A DNA stretch of 41,110 nucleotides from Escherichia coli (GTDB lineage Bacteria; Pseudomonadota; Gammaproteobacteria; Enterobacterales; Enterobacteriaceae), in NCBI RefSeq assembly GCF_003334315.1, contig NZ_QOWR01000045.1; one strand, written 5' to 3'. Shown here in pieces: positions 2,393 to 5,700 of this stretch. The notes under the pieces are model-generated. The model was not told the DNA's origin, did not search any database, and saw only the letters and a program-made list of their open reading frames with translations. Each line of letters starts with the position of its first letter. The stretch's first letter is position 1. The position numbers were made by a program, and so were the translations under genes.

Positions 2393-2754
2393 CATATTTC
2401 GCATTTGAATATTGGTCAGGATCTCACACCTGCTTCATGTGAAACTCTTCCCTGATGATTTCTGCCGGGCTACCGGCTAGTTCTCTTTCGCAGTTTGCCA
2501 GGCGGTATCGGTATTTTCAGGAGGAAAAGACTCGGCATGTTTGGGATTATTAAGCTGACAATTCATACGATTACGGGAATGTGGGTCAGTATTGTGTTGT
2601 TCAAATTGATGACGAATGGCTGGAGTGGTTTCTACTTTCAGTGCTGTGTACTAAGCCTGGTATTCCTGACGGTTAGCTGGTTGTTGAGTGGTGAATGGTT
2701 AGCAGGAAAGAGTAAGGCTGAACCTTCATGTTCAACCTTACTCTCATTTACACG

Positions 2755-5700
2755 TTACGCTTTTTTAAAGCGGGCAAAGAGATGTTCCACTACAACGAAA
2801 AAGACCGGAACGAAGTAAATTGCCAGCACTGTTGCGGCAAACATCCCGCCCATCACGCCGGTACCTACCGCGTTTTGCGCGCCAGAACCGGCACCATGAC
2901 TGATAACCAGCGGCAGCACGCCGAGAATAAAGGCCAGAGAGGTCATCAGGATTGGGCGTAAACGCATCCGCGCCGCTTCGATGATTGCCTCTATCGGCGT
3001 TTTCCCTTCTTTCTGCATCATCTCAACGGCAAATTCGACAATCAGGATGGCGTTTTTGGCGGAAAGCCCGATGGTGGTCAGCAAACCAACCTGGAAGTAG
3101 ACGTCATTACTTAAGCCGCGCAGATCGGTGGCCAGTAATGCGCCAACGACGCCTAACGGAACAACCAACATCACCGAGAACGGAATTGACCAGCTCTCAT
3201 AGAGTGCGGCGAGGGCGAGGAACACCACGACCAGTGAAATCGCATACAGCGCAGGAGCCTGATTTGAGGATAACGCTTCCTGATACGATAGTCCGGTCCA
3301 TGAGTAGCCGACGCCTGCCGGAAGTTTAGCGACCAGGTCTGCCATAAATTTCATGGCGTCACCGGTACTTTTCCCGGCCGCCGCTTCACCTAAAATCTCC
3401 ATTGACGGGATGCCGTTGTAGCGTTCCAGTCGCGGTGAACCATAGGTCCATTCGGTAGACGAGTAGGCAGAAAGCGGTGCCATCGTGCCAGAGGCGTTGC
3501 GTACATACCATTGGTTGATGTTATCCGGCAACATACGGAACGGCGTGCCTGCCTGGACATACACTTTTTTCACCCGCCCCTGGTTGAGGAAGTCGTTCAC
3601 GTAGCTGCTGCCGAAGGCGGTGGAAATTGTCTGGTTGATATCAGACAGCGCCACGCCCATCGCTTCAGCTTTCGCAGCGTTGACGTTCACTTTGAACATC
3701 GGCGTATCTTCCAGGCCGTTCGGGCGTACCCCGGTGACCTGATTCGGTGATTGCGCTGCCAGTGATAACAGCTCGTTTCGCGCCTGGGTTAGTTTTTCGT
3801 GCCCCAGGTTACCGTTGTCCAGCAGTTCCATATCAAAACCTGACGCGGTACCCAGTTCAGCCACCGCGGGTAAGTTGAACGGGAAGACGACGGCTTTATT
3901 GATACTGCTTAACGCAATCATTGCCCGCTGAATGATCGCGGTAACCGAGTTTTCCTCACCGACACGTTCAGACCACGGCTTGAGACTGATAAACGCCAGG
4001 CCGTTGTTTTGCCCCTGACCGCTGAAGCCAAAGCCGCCAACGGTAAACACCGACTGGACATTATCTTTCTCTTTAGTCAGATAATAATCCGTCACCTGTT
4101 GCAGCACTTTCGTGGTGTTAACCATGGTGGCACCGGAAGGTAACTGCGCGGTGGTCATAAATACCCCCTGATCCTCTTCTGGTAAGAAAGAGGTCGGCGT
4201 GCGCAGGAACAGCACCGCCATCCCGGCGCAAATCAGCAGGTAGACCACCATGTAGCGACCGGTACAACGCAACAGCGAGCGGGTGCTATCGGTATAGTGT
4301 TGAGTTGATTTTTCAAACAGCGTGTTGAAGCGTGCGAACAGGGCGTTAGGTTTGTGACCGCCTTCCGGCGCGGCTTTCAGAATGGTGGCGCACAGGGCAG
4401 GGGTCAGGCTCATTGCCACAAATACTGAAAGCAGCATGGAGGAGATCAGCGTGATGGAGAACTGGCGGTAGATCTCCCCGGTTGCACCGCTCATAAAGGC
4501 CATCGGCATAAACACTGCGGAAAGAACAACGGCAATACCGACCAGCGCACGTTGGATCTGCCCCATCGATTTATGCGTCGCTTCCTTCGGCGGTAGCTTA
4601 TCTTCCGCAATGACACGCTCGACGTTCTCCACCACCACGATGGCGTCATCCACCAGTAACCCTATCGCCAGCACCATCCCGAACATAGTCAACGTGTTGA
4701 TGGTGAAACCGACCGCCGACAAGATCGCAAACGTCCCGAGAATAACCACCGGTACGGCAATCGTCGGGATGATTGTGGCACGGAAATTCTGCAAAAACAG
4801 ATACATGACCAGGAAGACTAGGATGATAGCCTCAACCAGTGTTTTGAAAACTTCCTGAATAGAAATTTCGATAAACGGCGTGGTGTCGTAAGGATAAACC
4901 GTCTTCAGACTTGCCGGGAAATAGGCTGATAAGCGGTTCAGTTCCTCTTTGACTGCCCGCGAGGTATCCAGGGCGTTTGCTCCGGCAGCCAGTTTGATGG
5001 CGATCCCGGCAGCAGGTTTGCCGTTATAGCGCGCCACGGTGGAATAATCTTCCGCCCCAAGTTCGACGCGAGCGACATCACGCAGCAGCACTTGCGAACC
5101 ATCTTGCTGAACTTTCAACAGGATTTTGCCAAATTCTTCCGGCGTTTGCAGACGCGTCTGCACAATGATCGAGGCGTTTAGCTGCTGGTCTGCCGCCTGT
5201 GGCATGCCACCCAGTTGACCACCGGAAATCTGGTTGTTTTGCACCTTAATCTGGGAAATAACATCGGAAGGTACCAGGTTATATTTATTGAGTTTTTGCG
5301 GGTCCAGCCAGATACGCATGGCATACTCGGAACCAAAGAGTTGTACGCTACCAACGCCCGCGGTACGGCTTAGCGGGTCTTTGATATTAGACGCTACATA
5401 GTCCGCGATATCGTACTGGTTGAGGCTGCCGTTATCAGAAATAAACGCCGCTACCATCAGGATATTACTGCTCGACTTATCGACGCTAATCCCCTGCTGC
5501 TGCACTGCTTCAGGTAATGAAGGCATAGCGAGTTGCAGTTTATTTTGCACTTGAACCTGTGCGATATCAGGAGATGTCCCAGTCTCGAAGGTCAGAGTGA
5601 TAGAGGCATTGCCCGCCGCATCACTGGTTGAAGACATGTACATCAGGCCATCAAGCCCATTCATATTTTGCTCAATCACCTGAGTGACCGAGTCTTCTAC

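What the first reader, a model, noticed from the sequence alone, without database searches (positions are those of the whole stretch)
2537..2818. Candidate small membrane-protein ORF convergent with and overlapping the mdtF 3' end
An ATG at 2537 preceded by AGGAGGA (a spacer of about 12 nt, longer than optimal) opens a roughly 93-codon ORF encoding two strongly hydrophobic segments (GIIKLTIHTITGMWVSIVLF and FYFQCCVLSLVFLTVSWLL). Its last 64 nt overlap the 3' end of mdtF on the opposite strand. It could be an unannotated small membrane protein or simply a chance ORF in the gadW-mdtF intergenic region.
Basis: seen in the sequence. Interest (0 to 1): 0.25.

Follow-up and report, generated by a model that had tools for sequence, protein, structure and literature searches.

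The report
Real acid-induced small membrane protein gene
The 93-codon reading frame between gadW and mdtF in E. coli is a genuine gene for a small two-helix membrane protein, kept by selection across the genus Escherichia; it was already reported in 2023 as acid-induced "sORF15", is still missing from the reference annotation, and has no known function.

Summary
ATG 2537 to TAA 2818 (+) is a 93-codon ORF. It has AGGAGGA 12 nt upstream and two hydrophobic segments, and its last 64 nt lie antisense to the mdtF 3' end.

It is not a chance ORF:
- The frame is intact, with exactly 93 codons and no indels, in six other Escherichia species-level genomes and in nine further E. coli strains.
- Substitutions in the non-overlapping part concentrate at ORF codon position 3. 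dN/dS is 0.09-0.23 in this frame.
- The intergenic DNA just upstream is 23-25% diverged and carries indels.
- E. fergusonii has a 54-aa homologue at the same gadW-mdtF junction.

The ORF is already published. It is identical in coordinates and sequence to sORF15 of Schumacher et al. 2023 (PMC10746267). That study reported Ribo-seq induction of about 18-fold at pH 4.4 and a FLAG-tag western blot.

New here:
- the selection evidence;
- the genus-restricted distribution;
- a conserved two-helix core of about 55 residues;
- a C-terminal 39 residues that are a lineage-specific extension, read through a conserved mdtF 3' stem-loop and into mdtF.

Function is unknown. The most likely role is as a membrane-embedded partner of a larger acid-regulon membrane protein, MdtF or GadC, but this is inference only.

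The parts
2519..2525 (+). Shine-Dalgarno AGGAGGA. It lies within the stretch TTTTCAGGAGGAAAA, which is invariant in all seven Escherichia species aligned. The spacing to the ATG is fixed at 12 nt.
2537..2818 (+). 93-codon ORF, identical to sORF15 of Schumacher et al. 2023 (NC_000913.3 complement 3663464..3663745).
2537..2707 (+). Conserved core, codons 1-57. It comprises two transmembrane helices (about residues 2-26 and 31-57) joined by the short loop TNGWSG. The motif GWSGF-x-F-x-CC is invariant, including in E. fergusonii. This is where the purifying selection shows: dN/dS 0.05-0.22, and variable columns 17/10/34 by codon position.
2708..2745 (.). Conserved 16-bp stem-loop that the ORF reads through at codons 58-70. 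It is more stable as minus-strand (mdtF) RNA (-21 to -26.5 kcal/mol) than as plus-strand RNA (-17 to -20). It is probably the mdtF mRNA 3' stem-loop. The loop (2724-2729) is the most variable part of the protein.
2755..2818 (+). The last 21 codons plus the stop codon, antisense to the mdtF 3' coding end. Wobble positions of the two frames coincide. All 5 variable columns are at the shared third position, so both proteins stay unchanged.
1664..2392 (+). gadW, the upstream gene on the same strand. The ORF lies 144 nt downstream, in what the literature calls the gadW 3' UTR.
2755..5868 (-). mdtF (RND efflux permease), convergent with the ORF.
2393..2518 (+). Poorly conserved spacer between gadW and the ORF: 23-25% diverged, with indels. 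It contains a short GC hairpin (2464-2477) and the non-conserved 'sORF14' (2439-2480). No conserved promoter-like element was found.

Best explanation
This is a real protein-coding gene for a small inner-membrane protein. It is specific to the genus Escherichia and is part of the acid fitness island.

Shown here or in the literature:
- It is translated from ATG 2537 using the conserved AGGAGG.
- Its amino-acid sequence is under purifying selection.
- In K-12 it is ribosome-occupied and induced about 16-18-fold in both RNA and ribosome footprints at pH 4.4, together with gadW.

Inferred:
- It is transcribed as a 3' extension of the gadXW unit. In E. fergusonii it starts only 20 nt after the gadW-like stop, and no conserved promoter lies in the E. 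coli spacer.
- It inserts as a helical hairpin with both ends in the cytoplasm. The net +9 C-terminal tail follows the positive-inside rule. The short invariant loop NGWSG and the vicinal Cys36-Cys37 would sit at the periplasmic face.
- The functional unit is the roughly 55-residue two-helix core. The 39-residue basic tail of the E. coli/E. albertii clade is a later extension, created when the frame ran on through the mdtF 3' stem-loop and into the mdtF coding end.

Most likely mode of action (inference only): like other bacterial small membrane proteins, it binds within the membrane to a larger protein of the same regulon and modulates it. The neighbouring RND pump MdtF is the first candidate and the antiporter GadC the second.
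For: Identity:
- Coordinates and sequence are identical to sORF15 (mapping).

Published evidence (PMC10746267):
- Ribo-seq log2FC +4.21 (padj 1e-38) and RNA +4.03 at pH 4.4 versus 7.6.
- GadW +3.03 under the same comparison.
- DeepTMHMM predicts two transmembrane helices.
- A 3xFLAG fusion was detected by western blot.

Frame conservation:
- The ORF is exactly 93 codons with no indel in E. albertii, E. whittamii and four other species-level Escherichia genomes.
- It is intact in nine more E. coli, including O157:H7, a B2 strain and strain 042.
- All 39 full-length genomes sampled evenly from 5409 show no net length change.

Selection:
- Differences by codon position are 5/6/22 for E. albertii, 8/2/23 for E. 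whittamii and 8/3/25 for E1V33 (p about 1e-5 to 1e-4).
- Variable columns are 20/14/41 by codon position (p=1e-4).
- dN/dS is 0.09-0.23 in this frame and 0.45 to above 10 in four of the other five frames. The fifth is low only because its wobble positions coincide with those of the ORF, and it carries 3 stops in every species.
- Amino-acid changes are fewer than in all, or nearly all, of 20000 neutral placements of the same substitutions (p from below 5e-5 to 0.014).

Distant homologue:
- E. fergusonii has a syntenic 54-aa homologue, 49% identical over 41 residues. It lies between a GadW orthologue (62% identical) and MdtF (93% identical).

Structure:
- The AF2 model shows three helices at residues 2-26, 31-57 and 65-90.
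Against: - No function or phenotype is known, and no binding partner has been tested.
- The gene is absent from the RefSeq and K-12 reference annotation.
- It was not listed in one start-site profiling supplement from neutral-pH cultures.
- The western blot in the paper used an arabinose-driven plasmid, not the native locus.
- Selection on the C-terminal 36 residues cannot be separated from constraint by the RNA stem-loop and by mdtF.
- The AF2 model has low confidence (pLDDT 63.6).
- The SD spacing of 12 nt is longer than optimal.
- Nothing ties the protein to MdtF or GadC beyond position and co-regulation.
Confidence: 0.85

Rival explanations
1. The ORF is a chance open frame in G+T-rich intergenic DNA. 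Any ribosome occupancy would be pervasive, non-functional translation of the gadW 3' UTR.
For: ORF length alone is not striking: 2% of shuffles reach 93 codons. The plus strand is T/G-rich (34% T, 27% G), which favours hydrophobic codons. The last 21 codons are kept open simply by mdtF codon usage. The gene is not annotated by PGAP in about 5400 genomes.
Against: There is frame-specific synonymous excess and dN/dS of about 0.1. The frame is intact with no indels in seven species, while the adjacent spacer has indels and 23-25% divergence. A recognisable homologue sits at the same site in E. fergusonii.
Confidence: 0.03
2. The conserved element is an RNA: a gadW 3' UTR or an antisense partner of the mdtF 3' end. 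It would act by convergent-transcript pairing and RNase III cleavage, as GadY does for gadXW. Translation would be incidental.
For: The transcript must overlap the mdtF mRNA by at least 64 nt. A conserved stem-loop sits inside the ORF. The locus has a precedent for antisense control in GadY at 1308-1421.
Against: RNA-level constraint does not produce three-base periodicity of substitutions over 57 codons, nor a conserved peptide motif at 49% identity in E. fergusonii. In E. fergusonii there is no overlap with mdtF at all. No Rfam family matches here. An RNA role could still exist in addition to coding.
Confidence: 0.05
3. The ORF encodes a toxic small membrane peptide of the type I toxin kind. 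Its expression would be held in check by the overlapping antisense mdtF transcript and released under acid stress.
For: It is a small, very hydrophobic protein whose 3' part is overlapped by an antisense transcript, and it is stress-induced.
Against: It has 93 aa and two helices, rather than a single helix of 60 aa or fewer. It is single-copy and matches no toxin family in Pfam, NCBIfam or PADLOC. No dedicated antisense sRNA was found. E. fergusonii has no antisense overlap. The paper induced it from pBAD for 1 h and reported no toxicity.
Confidence: 0.05

Closest known systems
sORF15 of Schumacher, Gelhausen et al. 2023, mSystems 8:e01037-23 (PMC10746267)
   Same: It is the same object: NC_000913.3:3663464-3663745 (-), with identical nucleotide and 93-aa sequence. 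The paper describes it as lying in the gadW 3' UTR, acid-induced in Ribo-seq, predicted to have two transmembrane helices plus a possible third helix, and FLAG-tag positive.
   Different: The paper rested homology on BLAST hits and listed homologues above 80% identity in Vibrio, Klebsiella, Salmonella and Enterococcus. Here every named hit among 5.8 billion proteins is Escherichia, and no other genus appears. New here are the dN/dS evidence, the 54-aa E. fergusonii form, and the reading of the C-terminal tail as an extension through the mdtF stem-loop.
AcrZ (YbhT), the 49-aa inner-membrane partner of the RND pump AcrB
   Same: Both are small hydrophobic inner-membrane proteins co-regulated with an RND efflux pump. 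AcrZ has itself been co-purified with MdtF (PMC11539335), so MdtF can accept small-protein partners.
   Different: AcrZ has one helix and is encoded away from its pump. There is no sequence similarity: no Pfam or NCBIfam hit of any kind. No interaction data exist for this protein.
Stress-regulon small membrane proteins of E. coli (MgrB, MgtS, PmrR, SafA and similar)
   Same: They are short, membrane-embedded, induced by a specific stress, often encoded at the edge of a regulator's operon, and act by binding a larger membrane protein.
   Different: Those are mostly under 50 aa with a single helix and a known target. This one has two helices, is 54-93 aa, and has no known target.
Type I toxin-antitoxin toxins (Hok, TisB, Ldr, Ibs, Sho)
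   Same: Both are small hydrophobic peptides with an overlapping antisense transcript.
   Different: This protein differs in length and helix number. It has no dedicated sRNA and no multicopy family, and the overlap is absent in E. fergusonii.

Membership tests
sORF15 (published candidate small ORF) | Same genomic coordinates and identical sequence | tested here: met
   A window coordinate x equals NC_000913.3 coordinate 3666282-x. Table S7 gives 3663464-3663745 (-) and the identical 93-aa sequence.
sORF15 (published candidate small ORF) | Ribosome occupancy, induced at pH 4.4 | not testable with these tools
   Taken from the paper: RIBO log2FC 4.21, padj 1.1e-38.
Functional protein-coding gene | Reading frame intact in relatives | tested here: met
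   93 codons with no stops or indels in 7 Escherichia species and 9 further E. coli. A single-A deletion allele seen in draft data is absent from 5426 complete genomes. Rare disruption by an IS66 insertion in one O121 strain.
Functional protein-coding gene | Frame-specific excess of synonymous change (dN/dS well below 1) outside the overlap | tested here: met
   dN/dS is 0.09-0.23 in this frame. The other open-frame candidates are excluded by stops.
Functional protein-coding gene | Recognisable homologue at the same position in a more distant relative | tested here: met
   E. fergusonii P0050, 54 aa, 49% identity, lying between the gadW-like gene and mdtF.
AcrZ-type RND pump accessory protein | Sequence membership in the AcrZ family | tested here: not met
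   No Pfam-A or NCBIfam family matches, even at E up to 10.
AcrZ-type RND pump accessory protein | Single transmembrane helix | tested here: not met
   Two hydrophobic helices plus a third basic helix.
AcrZ-type RND pump accessory protein | Physical binding to the RND permease in the membrane | not testable with these tools
   Needs co-purification, two-hybrid or multimer modelling with coordinates.
Type I toxin | Short (about 60 aa or fewer) single-helix toxic peptide | tested here: not met
   93 aa (54 aa in E. fergusonii), with two helices. Toxicity was not tested.
Type I toxin | Dedicated antisense RNA antitoxin | tested here: inconclusive
   No Rfam match in 2393-2900. The only antisense RNA is the mdtF mRNA end, and that overlap is missing in E. 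fergusonii.
Intrinsic terminator (for the 2708-2745 stem-loop, minus strand) | GC-rich stem followed by a U tract | tested here: not met
   The stem is strong and conserved. It is followed by UUUCCUGCU only, and the consensus scan did not call it. It may be a 3' protective stem or a weak terminator.

The most novel reading that the evidence does not exclude
The protein is a dedicated, Escherichia-specific membrane subunit or regulator of the MdtEF-TolC pump, or of GadC, under extreme acid or anaerobic conditions. In the E. coli/E. albertii clade its gene was extended by overprinting of the mdtF 3' stem-loop and coding end. Convergent transcription would then couple the two mRNAs through double-stranded RNA at their 3' ends.
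Probability: 0.15. Interest if true: 0.6.

Novelty: already known. Interest (0 to 1): 0.35.

Why it matters
The acid fitness island is one of the most studied loci of E. coli K-12, yet a conserved 93-aa membrane protein inside it is still missing from the reference annotation and has no known function. The selection evidence obtained here moves it from a Ribo-seq candidate to a gene that evolution maintains. That justifies annotating it and testing it as a component of acid resistance or of MdtEF efflux. It is also a clear example of a gene tail that grew by reading through a neighbour's 3' stem-loop and into its coding end on the opposite strand.

Tried and rejected
- Family searches found nothing: Pfam-A (only two hits above E 0.01 on single alignment members), NCBIfam, PADLOC.
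- Structure-based searches found nothing: a PDB sequence profile and Foldseek of the AF2 model against the PDB. The model also has low confidence.
- A profile search of 1.84 billion representative proteins and two searches of 5.8 billion proteins found only Escherichia sequences. The one true divergent relative was E. fergusonii P0050.
- A tblastn search of plasmids returned only three E. coli chromosomes misfiled as plasmids.
- Many truncated or frameshifted 'variants' in the protein database at first suggested pseudogenisation. The commonest (76 aa, loss of one A in GGAAAG) is absent from all 5426 complete genomes, so these are most likely assembly errors.
- I looked for the ORF in the supplement of one start-site profiling study, and it is not listed. 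A second study has no supplement held.
- I checked whether an Erwinia RND gene that matched the scan pattern has an analogous small ORF. It is AcrB-like and has none.
- Covariation in the stem-loop consists of one compensatory pair and is not significant (122 of 500 shuffles).
- I considered modelling an MdtF-linker-ORF fusion. I dropped it because the tool returns no coordinates or PAE, so contacts could not be read.

Full report
**Where we are.** The window is the E. coli K-12 acid fitness island in reverse orientation.
- GadY lies at 1308-1421 (-), gadW at 1664-2392 (+) and mdtF at 2755-5868 (-).
- A window coordinate x corresponds to NC_000913.3 coordinate 3666282-x.

**The observation.**
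- ATG at 2537 and TAA at 2816-2818 give 93 codons.
- AGGAGGA sits at 2519-2525, so 12 nt separate AGGAGG from the ATG.
- The two quoted hydrophobic segments are there.
- The ORF overlaps the 3' end of mdtF on the other strand by 64 nt.
- The ORF listing extends the frame to a TTG at 2495. The stretch 2495-2536 varies at all codon positions among species, whereas the SD and the ATG are fixed, so 2537 is the start.
- Length alone is weak evidence: 2% of dinucleotide shuffles of 2393-2818 contain an ATG ORF of at least 93 codons. The strand is G+T-rich, which favours hydrophobic codons.

**Is it annotated?** No.
- The curated K-12 record has nothing between mdtF and gadW.
- In RefSeq, 5409 of 5426 complete E. 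coli genomes carry the region, with only mdtF annotated under it.

**Comparative test.** A degenerate-pattern scan of one genome per GTDB species returned the region from six further Escherichia genomes: E. albertii, E. whittamii and four other species-level Escherichia representatives.

The alignment shows a sharp boundary.
- The spacer 2393-2518 is 23-25% diverged in the distant species and carries indels.
- From TTTTCAGGAGGAAAA onward there is not a single indel, and the ORF is exactly 93 codons in all seven.

In the part that does not overlap mdtF (2537-2754), differences fall mainly on ORF codon position 3:

| Comparison | Differences by codon position (1/2/3) | Binomial p |
|---|---|---|
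| E. albertii | 5/6/22 | 9e-5 |
| E. whittamii | 8/2/23 | 2e-5 |
| E1V33 | 8/3/25 | 1e-5 |
| Variable columns, all species | 20/14/41 | 1e-4 |

- Nei-Gojobori dN/dS is 0.09-0.23 in the ORF frame (0.05-0.22 for codons 1-57).
- It is 0.45 to above 10 in four other frames.
- The one remaining frame with low values is the minus-strand frame whose wobble positions coincide with the ORF's. It has three stops in every species, so it is not coding.
- I re-placed the observed substitutions at random sites of the same base. This gave as few amino-acid changes as observed in 0 to 1.4% of 20000 trials.
- Third-position divergence (30% in E. albertii) is of the order of the neutral spacer. First- plus second-position divergence is 7.6%.

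**Within E. coli.** Nine genomes taken across the identity range all encode an intact 93-aa protein. They include O157:H7, a B2 strain and strain 042.
- Only two amino-acid polymorphisms were seen.
- K-12 has Cys65 where all nine others have Arg65.
- All 39 full-length rows sampled evenly through the ranking show no net length change.
- The frameshifted 76-aa form seen in the large protein database is not in any complete genome, while the intact 32-mer is exact in 4915 genomes.
- One O121 strain has an IS66-family insertion in the ORF.

**A more distant relative.** A profile search of 1.84 billion representative proteins found one truly divergent homologue, a 54-aa protein of E. fergusonii.
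- It sits at the same place, 20 nt after the stop of a GadW orthologue (62% identity).
- It ends 42 nt before the stop of MdtF (93% identity), followed by a canonical GC hairpin with a T tract for mdtF.
- It is 49% identical over 41 residues and keeps GIIKL and GWSGF-x-F-x-CC.
- It has no counterpart of residues 55-93 and no overlap with mdtF.
- No homologue was found outside Escherichia in any search.
- No Pfam, NCBIfam, PADLOC or PDB relative was found.

**Anatomy of the protein.** AF2 gives three helices at residues 2-26, 31-57 and 65-90, at low confidence (pLDDT 63.6).
- Hydropathy supports two membrane helices.
- The loop TNGWSG is uncharged and the C-terminal 38 residues carry net +9. 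The positive-inside rule therefore puts both ends in the cytoplasm (inference).
- Codons 58-70 are encoded by a 16-bp stem-loop (2708-2745) conserved in all seven species.
- The stem-loop is more stable in the mdtF-sense RNA than in the ORF-sense RNA, because a C-A mismatch becomes G-U. It has z=-4.7 against shuffles.
- 98% of cells are paired and there is one compensatory pair, but covariation is not significant.
- The stem-loop's own loop encodes the most variable residues, 63-65.
- The last 21 codons are antisense to the invariant MdtF C-terminus, with coincident wobble positions. All five variable columns are silent in both frames.
- Conservation of residues 58-93 therefore cannot be credited to selection on this protein. 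Together with the E. fergusonii form, this points to a two-helix core plus a lineage-specific tail.

**What is already known.** The ORF is sORF15 of Schumacher et al. 2023 (PMC10746267), with identical coordinates and sequence.
- The authors found it by inspecting the gadW 3' UTR in Ribo-seq at pH 4.4.
- Ribosome-footprint log2FC is +4.21 (padj 1e-38) and RNA +4.03, with translation efficiency unchanged. GadW is +3.03.
- They predicted two transmembrane helices and a possible third helix.
- They detected a 3xFLAG fusion from pBAD24 carrying 15 nt of native leader.
- They suggested a link to GadC or MdtF.
- I found no follow-up work.
- Their list of homologues in Vibrio, Klebsiella, Salmonella and Enterococcus is not reproduced here.
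- Their companion sORF14 (window 2439-2480) is not conserved in other Escherichia species.

**How it most likely works.**
- Shown: it is translated, acid-induced, and under purifying selection on the protein sequence.
- Inferred: it is co-transcribed with gadXW, inserts in the inner membrane as a hairpin, and acts through the two-helix core.
- Proposed by analogy with AcrZ, MgrB, MgtS and similar proteins: it binds a larger membrane protein of the acid regulon, with MdtF first and GadC second. AcrZ has been co-purified with MdtF (PMC11539335), so such partnerships are plausible for this pump. Nothing here tests one for this protein.

**Verdict.** The finding is already in the literature as a candidate, so it is not new. 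The added value here is the evolutionary proof, the genus-restricted distribution, and the dissection of the overlap.

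Noticed in passing
window 2439-2480 (+): 'sORF14' (13 aa, GTG start) comes from the same 2023 paper. It is not conserved in other Escherichia species. The start is GTA in L005, there is an internal stop in E. whittamii, and indels shift the frame in E. albertii, L005 and L014. It overlaps a short GC hairpin at 2464-2477.
   Followed up: partly
window 2708-2745 (both strands): A 16-bp stem-loop just downstream of the mdtF stop is conserved in seven species. It is more stable as mdtF-sense RNA and lacks a proper U tract. E. fergusonii instead has a canonical hairpin-plus-T-tract terminator at L018 6166-6195.
   Followed up: yes
L025 1440-1520 (E. coli O121 strain 201805972), corresponding to about window 2576: An IS66-family element is inserted inside the ORF, a rare natural knockout.
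   Followed up: partly
window 2729: K-12 has T (Cys65). All nine other E. coli sampled, and several other species, have C (Arg65). The K-12 protein is therefore the minority allele at this site.
   Followed up: partly
proteins P0024, P0026, P0032, P0033, P0039 and others: Public protein databases hold many frameshifted or truncated versions of this ORF. The commonest frameshift (P0032) is absent from 5426 complete genomes. These look like assembly or homopolymer errors rather than pseudogenes.
   Followed up: partly
window 7200-7271 (-), 18195-18278 (-), 27057-27097 (-): Rfam gathering-level matches to ES205 (the gadE 3' region, where K-12 annotates GadF), AgrB and ES036/CssrF.
   Followed up: no
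hits H46-H48 (PLSDB): Three E. coli chromosomes of 4.8-4.9 Mb are filed as plasmids in the plasmid collection.
   Followed up: no
L014 (Escherichia sp. MOD1-EC7003), corresponding to window 2478-2488: An 11-nt deletion removes the T-rich tail after the small hairpin downstream of gadW. This is further evidence that the spacer is not constrained.
   Followed up: no
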